A stretch of 64,000 bases of DNA, taken from Thermodesulfobacteriota bacterium (GTDB lineage: Bacteria > Desulfobacterota_D > UBA1144 > Nemesobacterales > Nemesobacteraceae). Positions 6,177 to 53,213 of the stretch are shown here, piece after piece. The stretch spans positions 1,016,434 through 1,080,433 of the forward strand of contig OZ246948.1 in assembly GCA_965232155.1 (NCBI GenBank), written 5' to 3'. Every line of letters starts with the position of its first letter. The stretch's first letter is position 1. The notes beneath the pieces were generated by a model. It searched no databases. It worked only from the letters and a program-made list of their open reading frames with translations, and had not been told where the DNA came from. A program made the translations under genes and the position numbers.

Positions 6177-6354
6177 ATCCAGAAACCACCCATTACGCTT
6201 CCCGCGACAGAAACAATTTCAACTCTGCCAACCCCGCCTCTAAGTATCTTATATGGAGGTTGTTTTTGTCAAGGAATGCGGCGAGGATTTATGAGGGAGC
6301 GGCGGAGCACTTAGTTCGAAAGCATGCTAGGTTCAGGGTACTGTTTTACCTGAA

Positions 6355-7356
6355 ATGGTTTCTCTTAATTCAGGCGGACTGTCGGGTACGCCGATTCCGC
6401 CGCGTCGGAAAAATATCCGCACGCGGGAGCGCACACGTCTGCGGCACTTCTCCCCAATTTTTTGCGGTCCCTGGCGCATCGCAACGGGCTTTTTCCTTCT
6501 TGCCGCCATCATACTCGGCGCGCAGCTGGGACCGGCCCGCGCACAGACCGACTCGGAATCGGCCACCTACACAGTAACATTTGAAGGTAACTGGAACACC
6601 GACAGCACGCCCGGCGGGGTTGTGGGCGGTGCCCATTTCACGACGCTGATCGGCGCCGTACACAACAGCGATGCGACCTTCTGGGCAGCGGGCGAGATGG
6701 CCACCGCTGGCGTGGAAAGGGTGGCGGAACTTGGCATCACGGGCGCGTTCGAGACAGAAATCAGCAATGCCGAAGAAGGAACTGTAAAATCCCTCGTCAA
6801 GCAAAGCGGCACCTCCTCCACGGGTACGAGGACATTTGAAGTCGAATTCAGCCGTACTCATCCCCTGCTTACGCTTCTGTCGATGATCGGTCCCAGCCCG
6901 GACTGGTTCGTAGGCGTCTCCGGTCTGTCTCTACTGGACAGATCGGATGCCTGGCTGCTCTCTCACACAGTAGAACTGTTTTCCTACGACGCCGGAACCG
7001 AGAACGGGGAAGAATTTTCGCTGAGCAATCCACCCACAAGTCCCCAGGAAACCATCATCAGTCTCAAGGGACAGGGCAAGTTCTCCGACACACCCATGGC
7101 AAGGTTGAGCTTCACTCTCAACGCAGAGCCTTTAACGGGGGAGATTGACGGACTGTCGGCGGAAGCCGGGGAGGTGGACGACGGCGGTGGAGGCTGCACT
7201 CTTGGAGGAAGTGATAGCGGCAGTGCGTTCGGGCTGTTTCTTGCAACGTTGGCGCTGCTTCTTGCGGTTTTGCTTAACAGAAATAGGCAGAAGACAAAAC
7301 GCATTGAGATGAGGCGAAGGCATTTTTCTGAGAACGGCTTAAGAGAAACGGAGTAA
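6355..7356 (+). CDS. Secreted Spondin_N-domain protein with a C-terminal Gly-rich/Cys, TM helix, basic-tail sorting signal (GlyGly-CTERM-like or MYXO-CTERM-like)
   Basis: Signal-peptide-like GFFLLAAIILGAQLGPARA. TYTVTFEGNW and PSPDWFVG are the spondin-N hallmarks. C-terminus is GGGGCTLGGSDSGSAFGLFLATLALLLAVLLNRNRQKTKR. The true start is uncertain because no ATG lies immediately before the signal peptide. Confidence 0.5.
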   Translation: MVSLNSGGLSGTPIPPRRKNIRTRERTRLRHFSPIFCGPWRIATGFFLLAAIILGAQLGPARAQTDSESATYTVTFEGNWNTDSTPGGVVGGAHFTTLIGAVHNSDATFWAAGEMATAGVERVAELGITGAFETEISNAEEGTVKSLVKQSGTSSTGTRTFEVEFSRTHPLLTLLSMIGPSPDWFVGVSGLSLLDRSDAWLLSHTVELFSYDAGTENGEEFSLSNPPTSPQETIISLKGQGKFSDTPMARLSFTLNAEPLTGEIDGLSAEAGEVDDGGGGCTLGGSDSGSAFGLFLATLALLLAVLLNRNRQKTKRIEMRRRHFSENGLRETE

Positions 7357-7503
7357 GTAATCTGGTTTTTATGGTGAACCTTCATCACGTGATGTATAAT
7401 TACACCCGATCAGTCTTTAAAATTCCCTTAGGGTTTTTCGTCCGACGGGATTTGAAAATTCGAAAAGATTCGTCAATCAGGTTTTAGAGAAACCGGTAAA
7501 TTC

Positions 7504-9453
<1,950 letters not shown>

Positions 9454-15217: not shown

Positions 15218-16550
15218 ATGCGCGTAGCTATCATCGGAAATGGGGTAACGGGGGTTGCGGCCGCCCTGAGTATACGCAGGCTCCAGCCCGACTGGGAGAT
15301 CATCATGATCTCGGGGGAGTCCTCTTTTCACTATTCCCGCCCGGCGCTCATGTACATATTCATGGGCCACATGAGCTACAAGGACACCAAGCCTTACGAG
15401 GACAGTTTCTGGAGGAAAAACCGCATTGATTTGGTAAGGGGATGGGTTACAGAAATTGATGCCGCCGGGAAAAAGCTCATTATGCACGAAAAAGATCCCG
15501 TTTCGTTCGATAAGCTGCTTGTCGCCACGGGATCCAAGTCAAACAAGTTCGGTTGGCCCGGCCAGGGTCTTGGAGGAGTACAGGGCTTCTACAGCCTTAT
15601 GGATCTCAGGCTTCTTTACGAGAACGTAAAAGGAGCCCGAAGTCGTCGGAGGTGGCCTGATCGGGATCGAGCTTGCTGAATGCTCCATTAAAAGGAGCCC
15701 GAAGCGCCGTTATCGTCGGAGGTGGCCTGATCGGGATCGAGCTTGCTGAGATGCTCCATTCGCGCAATATCCACGTCACACTGGTGAGAGAAGAGTCCTA
15801 CTGGATAACGTCCTTCCGATTGAGGAATCACGGATGATAAACCGCGTGATTCTGGAGCAGGGGATTGATCTCAGGCTCTTAACGGAGCTAAAGGAGATAG
15901 TAGGGGACGATTCGGGGAGAGTGCGGGGAGTCGTAACCAGCAAGGAGGAATTCATAGAATGCCAGATCGTCGGTCTTACCGCGGGAGTAAGTCCCAACAT
16001 AGCTCTTGCCAAGGCAAGCGGGATAAAGACAGGGAGGGGGATTCTGGTTGACCGCAGCTTCAGGACCGATACCCCGGATGTGTTTGCCGCCGGGGACTGC
16101 GCCGAGATAATCACTGAGGGGGATGGAAGGAACCTTATTCAGCAGGTCTGGTACACCGGCAAGAACCAGGGAAAAGTGGCTGGAGAGGCGATAGCCGGCC
16201 GACACAGCGTGTATGACCCCGGAATCTGGTATAACTCGGCTAAATTCTTCGATCTTGAGTACCAGACTTACGGTAACGTGAGAAACGTTCCTGCCCAGGG
16301 GGAGGACAGTTTTTACTGGGAGCATCCCGATCACAGCCGTTCAGTAAGAATCGTTACGAAAGACGGAGCCGTCTGCGGCATAAACGTCATGGGTCTTCGC
16401 TACAGCCACAGGGTTTGCGAGAGCTGGGTGGCGGAGAAAAGGCCCCTTGACTATGTGCTCGATCATCTGGGGGATGCCAATTTCGATCCGGAATTCTATG
16501 AAGAATGTGAAGCGGAAATAATAAGGGAGATAAGGAAACAGGCCGCCTGA
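15218..16550 (+). pseudogene. NAD(P)H-dependent FAD oxidoreductase of the pyridine-nucleotide-disulfide family (ferredoxin/rubredoxin-reductase or NirB-N-like), disrupted
   Basis: N-terminus MRVAIIGNGVTGVAAA...YSRPALMY (no redox-active Cys), second Rossmann RSAVIVGGGLIGIELAEML, C-terminal GDCAEI. The reading frame is broken by an imperfect 62/71-nt tandem duplication (15628-15760) and a 1-nt deletion near 15804 (GG vs GGG). Confidence 0.6.
15628..15760 (+). repeat. Imperfect tandem duplication (62 nt plus 71 nt) inside the flavoprotein gene
   Basis: Copy 1 is aaaaggagcccgaagTcgtcgg...gctgaAtgctccatt. Copy 2 carries an extra CGCCGTTAT and an extra G. Deleting copy 1 restores ...ENVKGARSAVIVGGGLIGIELAEMLHSRNIHVTLVREESYW. 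Confidence 0.8.
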
Positions 16551-23660: not shown

Positions 23661-23699
23661 CATCTTCTTCCGGAATATTTTCCCAAAACTGAAAACGAC

Positions 23700-24598
23700 G
23701 TGATGAATTGTTTCGTAAAATCACACGGGTTGGGAAATGACTATATCGTCCTAGACAGTGCCGAAATAGATTTTGATCTCGGCAAATCCGCCATAGAACT
23801 TATATGCCACAGGAATTACGGCATAGGTTCGGACGGCATACTGCTTCTGGTTCCCCCTGCAAGGGGGGATTTCGGGCTCAGGATTCTCAATCCTGACGGA
23901 AGCGAGGCGGAAAAAAGCGGAAACGGGCTCAGGATTTTCGCAAAGTATCTCTACGAGAGAAAACACGCCTCGGACAAGACTTTTTCCATAGATACTCCCG
24001 GCGGTCTTGTTACTGCCGAAGTTGAGGAAGAAGACGGAAAAGTCCACCACGTCACTGTGGAGATGGGCGCTGCGACTTTCAGGGCGGATGAGATACCGGT
24101 AGATATAGAAGAGGAAGAAGCGGTGGCGCAGCGTCTGGTTCTCGGCGCGGGAGAATTTGATTTTACCGCCGTTTCGGTGGGGAATCCCCACTGCGTTATT
24201 TTCTTCGAAGAGCTAAGAGAAGATCTGATAAGAGAACTCGGACCCGAAATAGAAACCCATCCCGTCTTTCCTAACAGAACTAATGTTCAGTTCGCCCAGG
24301 TGATCTCGCCCGACAGTGTTCGTATTTTGATCTGGGAGAGGGGGGCTGGCTACACTCTTGCCTCAGGAAGCAGTTCCTGCGCGGTCGCCGCCGCGTGTGT
24401 GAAGTCCGGTCTTACGGACCGGAAGCTCAGGGTGCTGATGCCTGGCGGGCATCTCGACATAAGCGTCGGGGAGGACTGGGCGATCACTATGCGCGGCGAG
24501 GTGGAAGAAGTCTTTCTCAGGAATGTTAAGCGACGATCTTCTTTACAAGCTAAGAAATCCTTCCTCTATAAACTTATAGGGCAACCGGTTCATTTTTT
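23700..24598 (+). CDS. dapF: Diaminopimelate epimerase; no stop codon before the downstream amidohydrolase start (apparent in-frame fusion)
   Basis: NCFVKSHGLGNDYIVLD, GNGLRIF, SVGNPHCVIF and ERGAGYTLASGSSSCAVAAA: both DapF half-domains with catalytic Cys residues. Frame continues ...GEVEEVFLRNVKRRSSLQAKKS...MERLLLAADVV. Confidence 0.85.
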
Positions 24599-25855
24599 GA
24601 TGGAGAGACTGCTTTTAGCGGCGGATGTGGTGATTCCGGTAAGTTCTGAACCGATTCGCAATGGAGCCATCGTGGTGGACGGGGGACGTATCATTGACAT
24701 CGGAACATCAGATAGAATCGAGGCTGACTATCCCGGCTTGCAGAAAATAAGAAAGCCGAACTCTATAATACTCCCTGGGTTCGTAAACGCCCACACCCAC
24801 CTTGAACTCAGTTGGACAAAGGGGAAGATCAGGGGTTTCGAAGATTTCACCGGATGGCTCGAGAGGCTGATCACTCTTAAAGCCGGCGGGGTTGATCAAG
24901 ATCTTGTGGAGGATTCAATGAGGGCGGGGATTCGCGACGTCATTGAGAGCGGAGTCACCACAGTCGGAGAGATATCTTCCCTGGATTTCGGCGGGAGGGA
25001 GATTCTTAGAAGCTCGGGAATGAGAATTATTGCATTTCTTGAACTTTTTGACCGCATCTCCCAAGACTTTCCTCGCTCGAATTTCAAAGAGAGGGCCTCT
25101 ATGAGGAAAGACCTTTTCCTCATGCGCCTTATTCCTGCGGGCCGGGGCTTCTGGAGGCGGTTTTTGCCTGTGCGCGCGAAAACGCGGTTGCGGCGGGAAT
25201 CCACCTGGGCGAGAGTCCCGATGAAGTCGATTTTCTGAAGAACCTGCCCAATGAATTTGAACGGAAAATCTTTCCGCTCATAAAAAAAGAAATCTTCAAA
25301 AGGCCACGGGCCGATACTCCGACACGCTACATAAACAGATTCCTCCGCGGAAAAAACATAAGACTCTCCGCAGTTCACATGGTTCAAGTGGCGGATGAAG
25401 ATATGGAGATAATCCGAGGCGCCGATATCGGCATTATTCTCTGCCCAAGAAGCAATGTTTTTCTCAGAGTGGGCAAACCTAACCTGAGCCAGATGCTTGA
25501 TCATAAAAGAGTAGGGCTCGGGACCGACGGACTTTCAAGCAACTCGGATCTTGATTTCTTTCAGGAGATCAGGTTCCTGCATGAAATTATGGTTGAGCAG
25601 GGAATACGGCAAAGCACCCGTCTGGCGGTCTACTTTGCGACTCTGGGCGGAGCAAGGGCTCTTTTTATCGAGAAGAAGACGGGGAGTCTTGAGGTCGGAA
25701 AAAGTGCTGATGTCATATGCATTGGGTGCAAAGGGGCAATTGCCCCGGACCCCTATTCCTCGATAGTGTCTTCAAAGCCGGAGGACCTCCAGTTCTCAAT
25801 TGTAGGAGGGAATTTCATCTACAAAAAGGACTCTCCGGCTCCTTGTGAGCATTAG
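24599..25855 (+). CDS. Amidohydrolase-superfamily deaminase (MtaD/SsnA/aminofutalosine-deaminase-like), frameshifted near 25115
   Basis: ADVVIPVSSEPIRNGAIVVDGGRIIDIGT...ILPGFVNAHTHLELS. A -1 frameshift then follows in a CCC run (should read ...RKDLFPHAPYSCGPGLLEAVF...HLGESPDEVDFL...). It continues as track ORF 25379..25855 (GTDGLSSNSDLDFFQE...GSLEVGKSADVI). Confidence 0.6.
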
Positions 25856-31225: not shown

Positions 31226-31324
31226 TTCAAAACCTCATTGAACTAAAAACCACGGGAAATAATACACAAGCCAAGAGGTTATTATAAGAATATTTCGAAA
31301 AATACCGATTTAATTTGCTCAGTC

Positions 31325-31401
31325 TTAAGAATCACTCAGTACTTGCTCCCTGATTTCCCTGAGCGTGAACCTGCGTGACTTGAGTTCGTTTATTAATCTT
31401 A
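31325..31401 (-). pseudogene. C-terminal piece of a short MerR-family regulator gene, separated from its N-terminal piece by the TnpB element
   Basis: Minus-strand frame reads INELKSRRFTLREIREQVLSDS* and continues in frame with ...QEMVERIRL upstream of the element once the element and one TAAGAT repeat are removed. Confidence 0.6.
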
Positions 31402-31415
31402 TGGGAATTATATAC
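31402..31415. repeat. Terminal inverted repeat of the element (low-coordinate end), 1 nt from the tnpB stop codon
   Basis: TGGGAATTATATAC. Confidence 0.8.
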
Positions 31416-32666
31416 TTAGCTACCATATGGCAACCTCGTATCAATTTCACGGTTCGCAGGGACTGTGCTAATACCAGAACCCTCCCCGTGCAGTCGCGCC
31501 ATTCCCAGACGCCTTATGTTTATTGCCGCATTCGTGTCCGCATTGGACGCATAGCCGCAACTCACACACAGGAACCGTGCTTGGGTTTTTCGGTTCTCTT
31601 TATCTGTATGCCCGCACTCGGAGCATGTCTGACTCGTGTATGCGGGATTTACTTCTATTAGTCTCCCGCACTTGTACTCAAGATTTCTTCTAAGTTCTCC
31701 CAAGGCTGTATCAAGCATTGCCCTGTTAAGTCCCGCCTTCTGCTTTACGTTCTTTCCCGGATTCTCTATCGTACCCTTTGCGGAAGCCGTCATATTCTTC
31801 ACCTTCAGATCTTCCACAACTATTGTTCCGCACTTGTCCGCAATTTCCCTGGTGGTCTTGTGAATCCAGTCCTTGCGGATACTGGCTATCTTTCTGCTCA
31901 CCTTCGCAAGTTTCTTCTTCGTGTCCTTCCGCCTGTTAGACCCCTTTATCTGTCTTGCAATCCTTCGCTGATACCACTTTCGCCTTGCTTCTTTCTTCTT
32001 TAAGTCGGGCAGGAAGTAAAAGTTTCCATCCGAAGTGGCTACCTGACGTGCGTTCATGTCAACGCCCAGAATCTCACCGTCATCCGGTCTTTTCTCCACT
32101 TCCACTTCATAGAATACGAATGCCCGCCACCTGTGCCCGTCATGGCGAAGCACTACCTGCCTGGGTACGCCATCTTCCCAGGGGTTTCCTCCCCTGCGGG
32201 TCATCTTTACCCAACCGACCTTGGGGATAAGAAGCAGAGAGTATTTTTTATCAATATTTTTTATTCTGAAGTTCTCCTTGCTTGGAAGCGTGAAGCTGGG
32301 TACGTGCCTGTTTCTGCTTATGGGCTTCGGAAAACCTTTCTTGCCAGCCATCGCCTCTTTCAATGCATCCGCAAAATACTTGAGGGTATGCTTTACAGGA
32401 TTGGCGGGAAGTTCAAGCATCCACTCCGTCTCATGCCTTAGCCTGGTGAACTCCACACCGAGACTGAAATAACTGGTATGCGGTCTCTGCCCTTTGTCAT
32501 TCTTGAATGCCTGGTAGTCGGCAAGGTTCTTTTCCCTGAAATGGTTCCAGACATATCTACAGGCTCCCGCTATCTGGAACATCTTGGTTGCCTTAGCCTT
32601 AGCAGTAGGCAGAACGACAAACTCTACGGTACGTATTTGTTTAGTCATTGCAATATATCGTATCAT
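31416..32666 (-). CDS. tnpB: TnpB (IS200/IS605-family OrfB, RuvC-like RNA-guided endonuclease); alternative start at M7 (32648)
   Basis: N-terminus RTVEFVVLPTAKAKATKMFQIAGACRYVWNHF. RuvC-I GVDMNARQ, RuvC-II IVVEDLKVKNM, C-terminal NPAYTSQTCSECGH...FLCVSCGYASNADTNAAINI (Zn ribbon plus RuvC-III). All three catalytic acidic residues are present. No tnpA adjacent. Confidence 0.85.
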   Translation of the reverse strand: MIRYIAMTKQIRTVEFVVLPTAKAKATKMFQIAGACRYVWNHFREKNLADYQAFKNDKGQRPHTSYFSLGVEFTRLRHETEWMLELPANPVKHTLKYFADALKEAMAGKKGFPKPISRNRHVPSFTLPSKENFRIKNIDKKYSLLLIPKVGWVKMTRRGGNPWEDGVPRQVVLRHDGHRWRAFVFYEVEVEKRPDDGEILGVDMNARQVATSDGNFYFLPDLKKKEARRKWYQRRIARQIKGSNRRKDTKKKLAKVSRKIASIRKDWIHKTTREIADKCGTIVVEDLKVKNMTASAKGTIENPGKNVKQKAGLNRAMLDTALGELRRNLEYKCGRLIEVNPAYTSQTCSECGHTDKENRKTQARFLCVSCGYASNADTNAAINIRRLGMARLHGEGSGISTVPANREIDTRLPYGS

Positions 32667-32682
32667 TTGTAGTGGTAATTAT

Positions 32683-32696
32683 GTATATAATTCCCA
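32683..32696. repeat. Terminal inverted repeat of the element (high-coordinate end), 17 nt upstream of the tnpB start
   Basis: GTATATAATTCCCA. Confidence 0.8.
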
Positions 32697-32858
32697 ATCT
32701 TATCCTTTCAACCATCTCCTGCGCGTAGAGCTGATACCCGGCTTCGGTAATTTCGGCTACTTCGAGCAAACCTTCTTTGGTCTAGTGGCGTATGGTGGAA
32801 TTTCTCTGGTTGACCAATTTTGCCAGCTCGCCGATTTTAAGCAGGGGACCCCTGTCAT
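32697..32858 (-). pseudogene. N-terminal piece of the MerR-family regulator gene: HTH region, with an in-frame TAG at the conserved Tyr and a probable G-run frameshift after the start codon
   Basis: Minus strand reads ATGACAGGGG-TCCCC..., then (frame-corrected) PLLKIGELAKLVNQRNSTIRH-TAG-TKEGLLEVAEITEAGYQLYAQEMVERIRL. This is the canonical MerR pattern IGELAK...TIRYYEKEGLL...GYRLY; it is then cut by the TIR of the element. Confidence 0.6.
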
Positions 32859-33013
32859 AATCTGCATCATTTTTGCCTTCAGCCACCTTGAGATATATAT
32901 CAAGTGGACGGCCAACTGCCCGTGCGACAATTTGTGGACAATATTCTGGAGACATGCTTTTCACTCGATTGCTTGGTGTTGAATACGAATCCCCGCCCGC
33001 TATAATTCAGACC

Positions 33014-48463: not shown

Positions 48464-49354
48464 TTGAGTCAGAAGAAGCGAACGAGAAAAAAACAGCCTA
48501 CGGCAAAAACCGGCGGAAAAAAAAGCACGTTAAGGCTCACCCACGCAGTTTTAGTCCTGATTTTCTTTTTCGCCTTTTCAATTTTCGGCCTCAAGTATAT
48601 CGAAAGATTTTTTGACGAACGGTCACCCCGGGAGGCTACTCCTACTGTGGTGGATAAGATTGAGGAGAAAAAGCCCCAGCGTCCGGGAGTTATTCTCATA
48701 ATAGATGATTTGGGTCATAACAAGGAGTCGATTGACAGAATACTCAGGATTAAACAGCCGCTTAATTTAGCCGTGCTTCCGCATCTTCCCCATTCCCTGT
48801 ACGCTGCGCACGCTGCTTACCGCGGGGGAAGGGACGTGATTCTCCACCTACCCATGGAACCCAAGTATTCTTCCGGTTATACGGCCGATGACGCTGGAGA
48901 AGGAGTTCTGCTGCTCGGCTTCTCGATAGACCAGGTGAGGCAGGAGCTCAGAAGAAACATCATGGCCGTCCCAAACATAGCGGGAGTCAACAATCATATG
49001 GGCTCCAAGTTCATGGAGAATGAAGAGCTGGTAAAGACGGTAATGCAGGAACTTAAGACCAGAGGACTTTATTTTGTCGACAGCTTTACGACCCCCAACT
49101 CCCGCGGATACAGCGTAGCGAGGCAGTTTGGAGTAAAGACGCTTAAAAGGGATGTCTTTATTGACCAGAGCGAGCGGGGCAAGGAATATACTATGGAGCA
49201 GCTTGACCGGTTGGTGAGGATCGCTGAGAAAAACGGCATAGCGGTAGGTATAGGCCATCCTTACCCGCAGACGATAGACGCTCTCGAGGAATATATTCCC
49301 AAGATTGAGGAAAAGGTTGAATTTATGAAAATATCGGCGACCGCTTTGAACTGA
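48464..49354 (+). CDS. Divergent polysaccharide deacetylase family protein (YibQ-like)
   Basis: N-terminal TM anchor, IDDLGHN...LPHLPHS...NHMGS... family pattern; its position after ctpA parallels the envC-yibQ arrangement. Confidence 0.75.
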   Translation: MSQKKRTRKKQPTAKTGGKKSTLRLTHAVLVLIFFFAFSIFGLKYIERFFDERSPREATPTVVDKIEEKKPQRPGVILIIDDLGHNKESIDRILRIKQPLNLAVLPHLPHSLYAAHAAYRGGRDVILHLPMEPKYSSGYTADDAGEGVLLLGFSIDQVRQELRRNIMAVPNIAGVNNHMGSKFMENEELVKTVMQELKTRGLYFVDSFTTPNSRGYSVARQFGVKTLKRDVFIDQSERGKEYTMEQLDRLVRIAEKNGIAVGIGHPYPQTIDALEEYIPKIEEKVEFMKISATALN

Positions 49355-49671: not shown

Positions 49672-49860
49672 TTGCCAGGAATAACAGTAGGTAGCAGCGA
49701 AAGTATTGACAGTGCCTTAAAAAGGTTTAAGAAACAGGTTGAAAAGGGTGGGGTTCTTTCTGAAGTAAGGAAGAGAGAATACTACGAAAAACCGAGCGAG
49801 AAGAAAAAAAAGAAGCTGTTTGCCGCCAAAAAGCGCAGTTCAAGCAGAAGAAGAAGGTAA
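49672..49860 (+). CDS. rpsU: 30S ribosomal protein S21
   Basis: TTG start giving [48 protein letters not shown]... (S21 pattern ALRRFKR..EK.G.L.E.RRRE.YEKP). GGAGG ribosome-binding site 11 nt upstream. Confidence 0.85.
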
Positions 49861-49928: not shown

Positions 49929-51723
49929 ATGAAGAACTATTCTTCCACATCAGCGATAGCGGATATAAAAGCAAGGCTCAGCATAGTAGATGTTATACAG
50001 GGCTTTGTTTCCCTTAAAAAATCTGGAAAGAACCATATCGGGCTCTGCCCGTTCCACGACGACAACAACCCTTCCATGCAGGTAAATGATGAGAAGGGTT
50101 TTTTTCATTGCTTCAGCTGCGGAGCCGGAGGAGATGTATTCGGCTTCCTGATGAGATACAGCAATATAGGCTTCCCCGAAGCCTTAAAAGAACTTGCCAA
50201 GAAAGCCGGAGTCAGACTCCCGGCTCCGCGTCGGCGCACCGAAAGTGAGAAGAAAAAAGAGGCCACTTCGGCGAGGTTTTTCAAGATAAATTCTCTTGTC
50301 TGTTCGTTTTACAGCGATAATCTCCACAAGGTCGGGAAAAAACTCCGCGCGGGCTAGAAAGTACCTGGAATCCAGAGGAATCGGTCCAGAGATAATCGAG
50401 GAGTTCAAGCTTGGCTTTGCCCCAGACAGCTGGGATGCCGTTGTGAAATTCGCTTCAGCGAAAAATATAGGTATCAAGGAACTCGAAAAACTTGGTCTTG
50501 TCGCTGCGAAGAAGAGCGGAAGCGGCCATTACGATCGGTTCCGAAACAGGATTGTTTTTCCCATAGATGAGATAACGGGACAAATTTGCGGTTTCGGCGG
50601 CAGAACTCTGAGCGAAGATGAACCCAAACAGCCGAAATACATGAATTCCCCTGAATCCCCGGTTTTCGACAAAAGGAGCATTCTTTACGGAATTTACCGC
50701 TCGAAAAATGAAATCGGAAGAGAACGGAAAGCCGTTTTGGTTGAAGGCTACATGGATTTCATAAAGCTCTACGCAAATGGAATACGCAACGTGGTCGCCA
50801 CCTTGGGGACGGCTTTTACGAATGACCACGCCAGGCTTCTGCGACGTTTCTGCGAGGAGGTGGTGATTGTCTACGACGGCGATACCGCCGGGATACGTTC
50901 CGCTGTCCGGGCCGGAGAGATTCTTCTTGAGCAGGGGATTTCTTCAAGCATTTGCCGTATTCCCGATGGCCTCGACCCCGATGATTATCTGGAGGAGCAC
51001 GGATCTGAGAGTCTCGCCGGGCTGATCGAAGCCGCCGTTGATGTCTCGGATTTTATTATTGACGACACTTTTGCAAGGTACAGGGAAAAGAAAATGTCTT
51101 CCGGAGAGTCGATAAAATTTCTTGTGGATTTAGTTTCAAAAATAAAAGACCCGGTCAGAAGGGCTGAAGCTGTTTCCAAGGTAACAGGGCTTTTCGGGAT
51201 AAGGGAGTCTGAGTTCCTCTCTATGGTGAAGACTTCGGATCCGGGGAGAAACCGCGGGTCGCTTGCGCCGGCGACCCTGATTCCGGAAAAGAACATTCAT
51301 GAGAGAGAAATTGTTAGGATACTGCTTAAATTTCCCCACCTGATGAACGCCGAGAAGATTGAAAATATCGGTAGGCATTTTGAAAATGGTGATTTAAAGG
51401 TTATTCTCAAACGTGTGGGTGAAGGGGAGTTTACCGAAGTTTCCTCCCTGATGAGTTCTTTTGAGAAAATCGAGATGCAGCAACTGCTGAGCGAATTGAT
51501 TTTTTCTTCGGATAATTTGGTAGATGAGACGATTTCGGAGAAAATATTAAAGGACTGCGTGAAGGAGCTTGAACTGAAAAATATAGCTTTTAAGCGTAAT
51601 GAAGTAATAGAGAGAATCCGCAAGCAGCGTGACTCTTCGGATAAGAACCTCGAAAGAAAACTTGTTGAACAATACAGGGATCTGGTGAGTATGGAAAAGA
51701 CCATAAAAGAGGCTGCAAGTTGA
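49929..51723 (+). CDS. dnaG: DNA primase, with an apparent +1 frameshift in an A6 run near 50325
   Basis: Zn-finger [30 protein letters not shown], then ...[12 protein letters not shown]| after which the frame shifts to [14 protein letters not shown]... (removing one A restores the frame). TOPRIM EGYMDF...VYDGDTAGI. Confidence 0.85.
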
Positions 51724-53213
51724 ACCCAAACGACGAGACCAACGGACTGGGAAACGAAGTCGGCATGCAGGATGAAGGGGAGTTCCCTGAGTCCGGACAG
51801 GGTTTTCAAAGTCCCCCGTCTGATTCTCAAGCGGAAGACAAGCTCAAACACGTAAAGAGTCCTGATTCCGACCAAGATCCTATAAGGTCTTACATTCTCG
51901 CTATTGCGCAGCACTCCCTCCTTTCCAAGGAGGAAGAAGTTGAGATAGCAAGACAGATTGAAAAAGGTAAGAAAATAATCGCGAGAATGATAATAGAGAA
52001 CCCCTTCATGATGAAAAAGGTTCTCAAACTCGAAGAAGAGATAAAAGAAGGCACGCTCGGTGCGGGCGACAGTTCCTACCAGGGCGAGTACATAGAATCC
52101 TCCGCTGACGGCGAAACATATAGAAATTCCGCAAAGAACTTTCTTCCAATCAAGGAACTTTTTGCTGAGACCGAAGAGCTGAGAAAAAAACTCGATACTA
52201 CGACGCTTTCAGATAGCGAACGAGCGAAGATCTCTAAGCAAATCAGAAAGAACAACGAGCGGACCGTAGAACTTCTTGACGAAATCGATTTTTCCTCTGC
52301 GCAGGCCAGCAGGATATACAACCTGGCCGTCGAGTATGTGGACAGGATTGAGGGCGGGGATTGTGACTGCATTATGGATGGTTCAGACGATGGGATCGGC
52401 AATGGTTCGAGATCTGAATATTCCGAGGAGGAAATCGCTTCTCTTAAAAAGGTGCTTAGTAGGTTTGAAAAAGCAAAGAAGGCTACTAAGAAAGCCAGAA
52501 AAACACTTATCGAGTGCAACCTCAGACTTGTAGTCAGTATAGCGAGAAAATACGTTAACAGAGGCCTGCCGTTCCTCGATCTGGTTCAAGAAGGCAATAT
52601 GGGGTTGATGAAAGCGGTTGAAAAGTTCGAACATGGAATGGGATACAAATTTTCAACCTGTGCCACGTGGTGGATAAAGCAGGCAATTACGCGCGCAATA
52701 GCTGATCAGGGAAGTCTTATAAGAATTCCTGTTCACATGACCGAAAATATAAACAGGCTGAACAAAATCTCGAGATCCCTGATGCAGAAACTGGGGAGAG
52801 AACCCAAGCCGGAAGAGATAGCCGAGGCAATGGACATACCTCTTGATAAGGTCTTGAAGATCATGAAGGTGTCACGTGACCCGATTTCCCTGGAGTCCCC
52901 GATTGGCGAGGACGAGTGCAGGCTGATGGATATTATCTCGGACCCGGCTTCCGCTTCTCCTCTTGACATGCTCGAGACCAAAGAATTGAACCGTATCATG
53001 CGCAACGCGCTCTGCACCAGTCTCAGTAACGGAGAGGAAGGAGTCGTTAAAATGCGTTTTGGTATAGATGAAGACAAGGAATACACCCTTGAAGAAATAG
53101 GGAAGAAGTTGAACGTTACCCGCGAGAGGATAAGACAGATCGAGGTAAAGGCCATTAAGAAGCTTAAAAGGTTCGGAAGAGCTCTTCCCATACGGGGTCT
53201 TAACACTGACTGA
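51720..53213 (+). CDS. rpoD: RNA polymerase sigma-70 factor RpoD (alternative ATG start at 51765)
   Basis: Region 1.2 [21 protein letters not shown], region 2 [41 protein letters not shown], region 4 [29 protein letters not shown]. Confidence 0.9.

What the first reader, a model, noticed from the sequence alone, without database searches (positions are those of the whole stretch)
49929..51723. Homopolymer-associated frameshifts in essential and other genes point to a systematic sequencing-error signature
dnaG is split at an A6 run (50320-50330); removing one A gives a continuous primase. The amidohydrolase is split at a CC(C) run (~25115). The flavoprotein has a GG(G) lesion (~15804) and the MerR-like gene a GGGG(G) lesion (~32848). 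Four homopolymer indels in 64 kb, including one in an essential gene, are more parsimoniously explained by 454/IonTorrent/nanopore-type errors than by biology. Gene calls in this genome should therefore be frameshift-tolerant.
Basis: seen in the sequence. Interest (0 to 1): 0.5.

Follow-up and report, generated by a model that had tools for sequence, protein, structure and literature searches.

The report
Assembly-error frameshifts in a Dadabacteria genome

Summary
The window comes from a Candidatus Dadabacteria metagenome-assembled genome; the deposited contig is 1.51 Mb. dnaG really is split. The extra base is one A at 50328/50329 (CAC-AGG-TCG became CACAAGGTCG). It is not in the A6 run at 50337-50342, which relatives carry in frame.

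Three more conserved genes are broken:
- a flavoprotein, by a degenerate 62-nt tandem copy plus 1-nt and 3-nt deletions within 180 nt
- an amidohydrolase, by a 1-nt deletion at 25061, not 25115

The "MerR lesion" is not a frameshift. It is a real gene remnant with a TGG>TAG nonsense codon and a TnpB element insertion.

Minimal repairs restore proteins colinear with relatives (597/597, 291/291, 418/418, 423/424 aa). All 29 related genomes have intact dnaG. Substitution patterns show normal purifying selection. None of 382 coding homopolymers of 5 nt or more carries a lesion.

Best reading (about 0.8): local consensus or assembly errors in a long-read MAG. This is not a biological feature, so interest is low. 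The practical advice to use frameshift-tolerant gene calling stands.

The parts
49929..50357 (+). dnaG 5' ORF: zinc-binding domain plus 9 out-of-frame codons, ending at TAG 50355-50357
   Evidence: Aligns to residues 1-134 of the 597-aa DnaG of relatives.
50328..50329 (+). The actual dnaG lesion: AA where relatives have a single base (CAC-AGG-TCG in L083). One extra nucleotide.
   Evidence: It is the only gap in the 1.8-kb alignment with L083, L004 and L006. Removing one A gives a 597-aa protein, 93.5% identical to L083 with 0 gap columns.
50337..50342 (+). It is ancestral and in frame (GGA AAA AAC) in relatives.
   Evidence: L004, L006, L008, L009, L011, L012 and L020 carry GGAAAAAAC, and L083 carries A7, all within intact genes.
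50330..51723 (+). dnaG 3' part in the +1 frame (RNA-polymerase/Toprim and C-terminal domains), stop TGA 51721-51723
   Evidence: (P0060).
15218..16550 (+). Pyridine-nucleotide-disulphide oxidoreductase (flavoprotein) gene, 424 aa in relatives, broken here
   Evidence: Pfam Pyr_redox_2 matches are split over two ORFs. Relatives have 424 aa. The repaired protein is 423 aa, 92% identical to L001.
15627..15688 (+). 62-nt degenerate tandem copy of the following 71 nt (15689-15759). It lacks 8 nt (CGCCGTTA) and 1 nt (G) but is otherwise identical. Absent from all four relatives.
15780..15806 (+). Window-specific 3-nt deletion (15780/15781, loss of a Phe codon) and frame-breaking 1-nt deletion (15805/15806; relatives have TGG ACT/ACG AAC)
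23703..24579 (+). dapF (diaminopimelate epimerase, 291 aa in relatives). A 1-nt insertion at 24516 (GTCTTT[C]TCAGG) shifts the last ~21 codons and fuses the ORF to the next gene.
   Evidence: The repaired protein is 291 aa, 94.5% identical to L001 with 0 gaps, and has the same stop position.
24600..25855 (+). Amidohydrolase (418 aa in relatives; some sources name homologues MTA/SAH or aminofutalosine deaminase). 1-nt deletion between 25060 and 25061.
   Evidence: The repaired protein is 418 aa with 0 gaps.
32697..32955 (-). 5' part of a MerR-type HTH gene remnant. It corresponds to the C-terminal part of a Fic-MerR fusion in relative L001. In-frame TAG at 32782-32784 (TGG in L001). Not a frameshift.
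31403..32695 (-). TnpB-encoding insertion element (tnpB 31416-32666) with 24-nt imperfect terminal inverted repeats. It is flanked by the 8-bp target duplication AATCTTAT (31395-31402 and 32696-32703) and splits the MerR remnant.
31316..31394 (-). 3' end of the MerR remnant (…INELKSRRFTLREIREQVLSDS*) downstream of the element

Best explanation
The breaks in dnaG, dapF, the amidohydrolase and the flavoprotein are local consensus or assembly errors in the deposited long-read metagenome-assembled genome. They are not features of the organism's DNA. The real genes are ordinary, intact, single-frame genes.

The defects are a few isolated single-base indels at non-repetitive or 2-3-nt contexts, plus one short poorly resolved stretch (15627-15806). 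In that stretch a piece of sequence was laid down twice, the first time with deletions.

Inferred mechanism: the base-level contig was stitched from individual read fragments and polished in windows with too few or mixed-strain reads. That leaves occasional uncorrected indels and a mis-trimmed overlap. The insertions at dnaG (AGG/AAG giving AAGG) and dapF (TTT/TTC giving TTTC) have the form expected if both alleles of a strain SNP were retained by a partial-order consensus.

Shown: the lesions, their exact positions, their absence in all relatives, and normal selective constraint. Inferred: the sequencing platform, the pipeline and the consensus mechanism.
For: (1) Minimal repairs (-1 nt; -1 nt; +1 nt; -62 nt and +1 nt) restore proteins colinear with relatives: DnaG 597/597, DapF 291/291, amidohydrolase 418/418, flavoprotein 423/424, with 87-94% identity and 0-1 gap columns.

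(2) Every relative is intact. About 60 DnaG clusters at 73-93% identity are 592-604 aa. dnaG is unsplit in all 29 Dadabacteria genome loci. The amidohydrolase is 418 aa in about 50 clusters. The flavoprotein (424 aa) and DapF (291 aa) are intact in L001, L002, L081 and L082.

(3) There is no relaxed selection. Window-branch N/S is 0.32 against 0.28-0.38 for relatives at 14.5-35.8 kb, and about 0.5 against 0.33-0.50 at 40.5-61.6 kb. On the dnaG terminal branch N/S is 17/22, against 11/13 in its intact sister L083, and the replacements are conservative. The neutral expectation, from my own knowledge, is about 2.5-3.

(4) Essential genes are hit (dnaG, dapF), and 4 of about 58 genes are split against 3 of 504 in relatives (p = 0.003).

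(5) The lesions cluster. Five events fall within 180 nt of the flavoprotein gene. The duplicate copy is identical to the window's own downstream copy except for deletions of 8 nt and 1 nt. That points to a recent or artificial origin, not an old duplication.

(6) Related single-contig Dadabacteria genomes carry Sanger-style MAG titles and metaMDBG-style contig names (ctg522297l, ctg176520_2x_l). The sponge genome note PMC12648040 describes such MAGs as PacBio HiFi reads assembled with metaMDBG. metaMDBG concatenates read-derived k-min-mer sequences and then polishes in non-overlapping 500-nt windows by SPOA (PMC11392814).

(7) Another MAG of that kind (L012, OZ241855.1) shows the same type of local damage: six deletions within about 250 nt of purE.
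Against: - No reads, coverage or second assembly of this strain could be obtained, so the errors are not directly demonstrated. Searches found the source not indexed, one search found no JGI match, and the closest independent sequence is only 93.8% identical.
- The platform and pipeline of the source genome are inferred by analogy with relatives.
- HiFi or consensus errors are usually homopolymer-associated, and these lesions are not clearly so.
- The window does contain genuine decay (the IS-disrupted MerR remnant with a nonsense codon), so real inactivating mutations occur in this lineage.
- The window's frame-split rate is about 10 times that of sister MAGs from apparently similar pipelines. 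That needs an ad hoc cause such as low coverage or strain mixture.
Confidence: 0.8

Rival explanations
1. The lesions are real, very recent inactivating mutations in a symbiont or streamlined genome that is starting to degenerate. Alternatively they are carried by the minority haplotype that the assembler happened to follow.
For: Genuine decay exists in the same window. The Fic-MerR gene is reduced to a remnant with a TGG>TAG codon and a TnpB element with a target-site duplication. Relatives appear to come from sponge metagenomes, where host-associated lineages can accumulate pseudogenes. The frame-split rate is about 10 times that of sister MAGs.
Against: dnaG and dapF are normally indispensable. 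N/S on the window branch equals that of relatives, both genome-wide and within the broken genes. There are no nonsense codons, large deletions or extra lesions elsewhere in the four genes, and each needs only the minimal repair. Five events within 180 nt of one gene, including an 87%-length copy that differs only by deletions, is not how pseudogenes decay. From my own knowledge, real bacterial indels concentrate in homopolymers, and these do not.
Confidence: 0.1
2. Classical homopolymer-length miscalling (454, IonTorrent or early nanopore) produced the indels.
For: Each single-base lesion can be written as a change in a very short run: A to AA at 50328; possibly CCCC to CCC at 25061 if the ancestor had TCC; possibly TT to TTT at 24515 if the ancestor had TTC.
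Against: The A6 run in dnaG is intact relative to relatives. None of 382 coding runs of 5 nt or more, including 109 runs of 6-8 nt, is associated with a frame break. 32% of positions touch a run of 3 nt or more by chance. The 62-nt degenerate duplication and the 8-nt and 3-nt deletions are not run-length errors. The MerR case is a substitution plus an IS insertion.
Confidence: 0.05
3. The dnaG frameshift is real and tolerated. Either occasional +1 slippage of the ribosome (or RNA polymerase) on the A6 run 8 nt downstream restores full-length primase, or the zinc-binding domain and the polymerase domain work as two polypeptides in trans.
For: A +1 slip of tRNA-Lys on AAA AAA C (50337-50343) would re-pair perfectly and give ...[14 protein letters not shown]..., a 597-aa primase that differs only in a variable linker. 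From my own knowledge, little primase is needed per cell and zinc-binding domains of DnaG can act in trans.
Against: The frameshift is not conserved. All relatives, several with the same A6 run, encode dnaG in one frame, so the site did not evolve for recoding. From my own knowledge, A6 is short for efficient slippage. The 3' ORF has no Shine-Dalgarno-like sequence before its only early start, TTG 50296. Three other genes in the window carry comparable lesions with no slippery site.
Confidence: 0.03

Closest known systems
Residual consensus errors and frameshifted gene calls in long-read (PacBio or nanopore) metagenome-assembled genomes
   Same: Isolated 1-nt indels split otherwise conserved genes. 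There is a locally garbled stretch with a short duplicated segment. The lesions are unique to one assembly, and the genes are restored by minimal edits. A sister MAG (L012) shows a similar garbled stretch in purE.
   Different: Here long homopolymers are all correct and the lesions sit at non-repetitive or 2-3-nt contexts. The platform of this genome could not be verified.
Programmed +1 ribosomal frameshifting (prfB/RF2 type) and programmed -1 frameshifting (dnaX type)
   Same: An essential gene is read in two frames, with a slippery-looking A-rich run near the junction.
   Different: Programmed sites are conserved across relatives and have defined stimulators, namely an in-frame stop plus an upstream SD for prfB, or A AAA AAG plus a hairpin for dnaX (my own knowledge). 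Here no relative has the shift and the indel lies upstream of the run.
Poly(A)-tract slippage rescue of frameshifted genes in insect endosymbionts (Buchnera, Blochmannia)
   Same: A frameshifted essential gene lies next to an A run that could in principle be read through by polymerase infidelity.
   Different: From my own knowledge, those tracts are about 9-10 A or longer, occur in AT-rich degenerate genomes and carry the lesion inside the tract. Here the run is A6, GC content is 50%, selection is normal, and the lesion is outside the run.
Pseudogenes of recently host-restricted symbionts
   Same: Several disrupted genes per 64 kb and an IS insertion in the neighbourhood. The MerR remnant is a true example.
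   Different: The four conserved genes show no elevated N/S, no nonsense codons and no further decay, and they include dnaG and dapF.

Membership tests
Bacterial DnaG primase (the gene itself) | Zn-ribbon, DnaG_N and Toprim domain order in one polypeptide of about 580-600 aa | tested here: met
   After removing one A at 50329 the product is 597 aa and colinear with 597-aa relatives that carry PF01807, PF08275 and PF13155/PF13662/PF01751. As deposited, the domains are split over two ORFs.
Bacterial DnaG primase (the gene itself) | Conserved operon context rpsU-dnaG-rpoD | tested here: met
   An S21-like ORF ends at 49860, dnaG spans 49929-51723 and rpoD spans 51720-53213. Relatives have the same order.
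Homopolymer-length sequencing-error signature (454/IonTorrent/nanopore type) | Indels located inside homopolymer runs, with the error rate rising with run length | tested here: not met
   The dnaG indel is at CAC[A]AGG, not in the A6 run. 0 of 382 coding runs of 5 nt or more are affected. At most 2 of 4 single-base lesions touch a run of 3 nt or more, against 32% expected by chance.
Homopolymer-length sequencing-error signature (454/IonTorrent/nanopore type) | Lesions are single-base length changes only | tested here: not met
   A 62-nt degenerate duplication and 8-nt and 3-nt deletions occur in the flavoprotein gene.
Assembly or consensus artefact (general) | Lesion absent from all independent related sequences, and the gene restored by a minimal edit | tested here: met
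Assembly or consensus artefact (general) | Lesion contradicted by the underlying reads or by an independent assembly of the same strain | not testable with these tools
   The source contig is not indexed, no same-strain sequence exists in the databases (best is 93.8% nt), and the JGI scan was empty.
Programmed ribosomal frameshift | Frameshift conserved in orthologues | tested here: not met
   dnaG is unsplit in all 29 Dadabacteria genome loci, and about 60 protein clusters are full-length in one frame.
Programmed ribosomal frameshift | Shift occurs at a defined slippery site | tested here: not met
   The alignment places the extra base 8-9 nt upstream of the only slippery-looking run. The run itself is present in unshifted relatives.
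Pseudogene / degenerating genome | Relaxed selection (elevated N/S) on the affected lineage or genes | tested here: not met
   Window-branch N/S is 0.32-0.5 against 0.28-0.50 for relatives. Unique-change N/S is 0.72 against 0.38-0.67. The dnaG terminal branch gives 17/22 against 11/13 for its sister.
Pseudogene / degenerating genome | Multiple kinds of lesion (nonsense codon, IS insertion, deletion) in the same gene | tested here: met
   Met only for the MerR-like remnant: loss of the Fic part, TGG>TAG, and a TnpB element with a target-site duplication. Not met for dnaG, dapF, the amidohydrolase or the flavoprotein.

The most novel reading that the evidence does not exclude
The extra A in dnaG is real in the organism's DNA, and the cell survives in one of two ways. 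A low level of +1 slippage on the adjacent A6 run (AAA AAA C, 50337-50343) could restore full-length primase. Alternatively, the zinc-binding domain (142-aa ORF) and the polymerase/helicase-binding part (475-aa ORF) could function as a naturally split primase in trans.
Probability: 0.03. Interest if true: 0.6.

Novelty: not a real feature. Interest (0 to 1): 0.08.

Why it matters
The value here is mainly quality control. This deposited genome carries about one frame-breaking defect per 10-15 kb. These defects split or fuse conserved genes: dnaG into 142-aa and 475-aa pieces, and dapF fused to the amidohydrolase N-terminus. Naive gene calls, completeness estimates, pseudogene counts and "gene loss" inferences for this lineage would therefore be wrong.

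The work also corrects the diagnosis. The defects are not homopolymer miscalls, so homopolymer-aware polishing or run-length-tolerant callers would not fix them. Homology-guided frameshift repair or re-polishing with reads is needed.

The one genuine piece of biology near the listed sites is the IS-disrupted Fic-MerR remnant. It should not be "repaired".

Tried and rejected
This gives an open 597-aa frame but the junction reads HKVGKNS. Relatives show S-G-K-N in the +1 frame before the run, so the lesion lies upstream. Rejected as the repair.

(2) Programmed frameshift. Rejected because the shift is not conserved.

(3) Degenerating-genome reading. Tested with three-taxon and leave-one-out counts of nonsynonymous and synonymous changes. 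There was no excess on the window branch beyond the range of relatives. The one outlier, 48464-49351 with 19/7, includes a non-conserved N-terminal and upstream stretch.

(4) Finding the source record or the same strain elsewhere. Exact-protein look-ups of P0060 and GlyQ failed. The cluster look-up gave no accession. The JGI pattern scan across the lesion was empty. The genome-contig scan returned only other species.

(5) More lesions outside the compared regions. Pfam coverage of the large ORFs at 1-14.5 kb, 35.8-40.3 kb and 61.6-64 kb is full-length. Comparison with L081 and L082 found only intergenic, in-frame or compensated differences. An apparent 1-nt difference near the 3' end of the Spondin_N gene lies in a non-conserved tail.

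(6) A 500-nt periodicity of lesion positions, as expected from polishing windows. Not testable without the contig offset, and there is no common phase among the positions.

MAFFT aligns this stretch without gaps, and it is simply a diverged in-frame stretch.

Full report
WHAT THE WINDOW IS. The window has 50% GC and no Ns. It encodes a typical bacterial housekeeping neighbourhood. Homology searches place it in Candidatus Dadabacteria, which NCBI titles file under Thermodesulfobacteriota. A repaired DnaG finds about 60 protein clusters at 73-93% identity, nearly all 597 aa, several named 'DNA primase [Candidatus Dadabacteria bacterium]'. One hit, P0060, is the 475-aa 3' ORF of this very gene at 100% identity. 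It sits on a 1,513,048-bp contig held by NCBI and ENA, so the split is present in the deposited assembly. Related genomes are syntenic with the window at 85-94% nucleotide identity.

THE dnaG OBSERVATION. dnaG is split into 49929-50357 (142 aa) and a +1-frame ORF ending at 51723 (475 aa from TTG 50296). The run is actually at 50337-50342. Removing an A from it does open the frame, but that is not the lesion.
- In relatives the run is present and in frame as TCx GGA AAA AAC (Ser-Gly-Lys-Asn). L083 has A7.
- In the window, Ser-Gly-Lys-Asn is already in the +1 frame before the run.
- In a four-way alignment of the whole 1.8-kb gene the only gap is one extra base in CAC[A]AGGTCG, at 50328/50329. 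The closest relative (L083, 93.8% nt, a short-read assembly) has CAC AGG TCG.
- Deleting one A gives a 597-aa protein, 93.5% identical to L083 with no gaps.

THE OTHER SITES. A gap census against four or more relatives over about 57 kb of the window gives the following.
- Flavoprotein (15218-16550; 424 aa in relatives). A 62-nt segment (15627-15688) is a copy of the next 71 nt. It lacks 8 nt and 1 nt and is otherwise identical. All relatives lack it. A window-specific 3-nt deletion and a frame-breaking 1-nt deletion lie 95 and 118 nt further on.
- dapF. A 1-nt insertion at 24516 (GTCTTT[C]TCAGG) shifts the last ~21 codons and fuses the ORF to the next gene. This explains why Pfam finds DAP_epimerase and the amidohydrolase N-terminus in one ORF.
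- Amidohydrolase. A 1-nt deletion lies between 25060 and 25061 (ATCTC^CCAAG; relatives TCA CCG), not at about 25115.
- 'MerR-like' gene. This is on the minus strand and needs no frameshift at the GGGG/CCCC site. It is the C-terminal MerR part of a 329-aa Fic-MerR gene that is intact in L001 and absent in L002. In the window the Fic part is missing, a TGG codon is TAG (32782-32784), and the reading frame is interrupted. The interrupting 1,293-bp TnpB element has 24-nt imperfect terminal inverted repeats and an 8-bp target duplication, AATCTTAT. This is genuine decay of an accessory gene.
- Everything else. All other differences from relatives are intergenic, multiples of three, or compensated within a few bases in variable segments. 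Large ORFs in the stretches without comparators have full-length Pfam matches.

IS IT MORE THAN CHANCE, AND IS IT ABOUT HOMOPOLYMERS? Four of about 58 genes are frame-split. In the dnaG neighbourhoods of 30 related genomes, 3 of 504 orthologues are (Fisher p = 0.003). So the window is unusual. The homopolymer link fails, though.
- The window's coding sequence contains 382 runs of 5 nt or more, including 109 runs of 6-8 nt. None coincides with a frame break.
- 32% of all inter-base positions touch a run of 3 nt or more, and at most two of the four single-base lesions do.
- The lesions are clumped instead: five events within 180 nt of one gene, two events 545 nt apart, and one isolated.

ERROR OR BIOLOGY?
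1. Repair. Minimal edits restore proteins colinear with relatives: 597/597, 291/291, 418/418 and 423/424 aa. None of the four genes has any other defect.
2. Selection. Counts of lineage-specific nonsynonymous and synonymous codon changes show the window branch behaving like its relatives. N/S is 0.32 against 0.28-0.38 at 14.5-35.8 kb, and about 0.5 against 0.33-0.50 at 40.5-61.6 kb. With the closest relative as sister, the dnaG terminal branch has N/S 17/22, against 11/13 for the intact sister, and the replacements are conservative. From my own knowledge, a gene drifting neutrally would approach about 3. The broken genes have therefore been under purifying selection for essentially the whole branch.
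3. Gene identity. dnaG and dapF are normally indispensable.
4. The 62-nt copy. It is identical to the window's own downstream sequence apart from two deletions. It is thus either very recent or artificial. A duplicated, deletion-riddled segment next to further small deletions looks like a poorly supported stretch of consensus.
5. Parallel case. A sister MAG (L012, OZ241855.1) shows the same kind of damage, six deletions within about 250 nt of purE.
6. Likely provenance.
   - The single-contig relatives have titles of the form 'MAG: Thermodesulfobacteriota bacterium isolate <UUID> ... chromosome' and contig names such as ctg522297l and ctg176520_2x_l.
   - A Wellcome Open Research genome note for a sponge describes such Dadabacteria MAGs as PacBio HiFi reads assembled with metaMDBG (PMC12648040).
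   - The metaMDBG paper states that base-level contigs are made by concatenating read-derived fragments while discarding overlaps, and are then polished in non-overlapping 500-nt windows by partial-order alignment (PMC11392814).
   - Both steps offer plausible routes to a mis-trimmed duplicate and to uncorrected indels where depth is low or strains are mixed.
   - That the window's genome came from the same pipeline is an inference from the shared sources and the similar contig size, not a demonstrated fact.

WHAT REMAINS UNCERTAIN. I could not obtain reads, depth or an independent assembly of this strain. The artefact reading is therefore strongly supported but indirect. Real, very recent mutations cannot be excluded (about 0.1). 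A tolerated dnaG frameshift, rescued by +1 slippage on the nearby A6 run or by trans-acting domains, is mechanistically conceivable but unsupported (about 0.03). The shift is not conserved, the run is ancestral in unshifted relatives, and three other genes carry similar lesions with no slippery site.

VERDICT. The proposed homopolymer signature and three of the four site descriptions are wrong, one lesion was missed, and one 'lesion' is real biology of a different kind. This is not a biological feature, and interest is low.

Noticed in passing
window 31395-32703 (element 31403-32695, minus strand): A TnpB-only element (416-aa ORF; Pfam OrfB_IS605 and Cas12f1-like TNB) is bounded by 24-nt imperfect terminal inverted repeats, of which the outer 13 nt (GGGAATTATATAC) are perfect. 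It is flanked by an 8-bp target-site duplication, AATCTTAT. TIRs plus a TSD are not the hallmark of IS200/IS605-type tnpB elements, which from my own knowledge have neither. No second copy occurs in the window, and only single half-site matches occur in L013 and L020.
   Followed up: partly
window 31316-31402 and 32697-32955 (minus); L001 16751-17740: The locus between hisA and the EVE-domain gene is variable. L001 has an intact 329-aa Fic-MerR fusion, L002 has nothing, and the window keeps only the MerR part, with a TGG>TAG codon and the TnpB insertion.
   Followed up: yes
L012 (OZ241855.1) about 1040-1300, purE: A related single-contig MAG has six deletions (2, 12, 4, 3, 15 and 1 nt) within about 250 nt of purE. 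This is a locally garbled stretch like the window's flavoprotein cluster.
   Followed up: partly
L019 (OZ219878.1) about 7700, S41 peptidase gene; L023 HAD hydrolase gene: Two other relatives have single frame-breaking lesions. L019 has a 2-nt loss in GTGCGCGA. L023 has a shift near HAD residue 178. These give a background of about 0.6% split genes among relatives.
   Followed up: partly
L008 (OZ242379.1) dnaG codons about 131-144: There is a perfect in-frame 21-nt tandem duplication (CGCAGTTCAGGAAAAAACTCC x2, RSSGKNS twice). It lies exactly in the DnaG linker where the window has its extra A. The linker between the zinc-binding and polymerase domains is a length-variable spot.
   Followed up: no
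window 6331-9450 versus L081 5708-13417 and L082 7903-13420: The Spondin_N-domain protein varies in length (341 aa here, 487 and 605 aa in relatives), apparently by in-frame loss or gain of an internal block. L081 has two extra genes before the acetyl-CoA synthetase. Both relatives have a 414-aa Fic gene after it that the window lacks. The best acetyl-CoA synthetase matches (96%) come from contigs other than those of the nearest dnaG relatives.
   Followed up: no
window 23661-25235: Because of the two lesions at 24516 and 25061, the deposited sequence contains one stop-free frame running from dapF through the first 150 codons of the amidohydrolase. Automated annotation would probably report a spurious DapF-amidohydrolase fusion protein.
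   Followed up: yes
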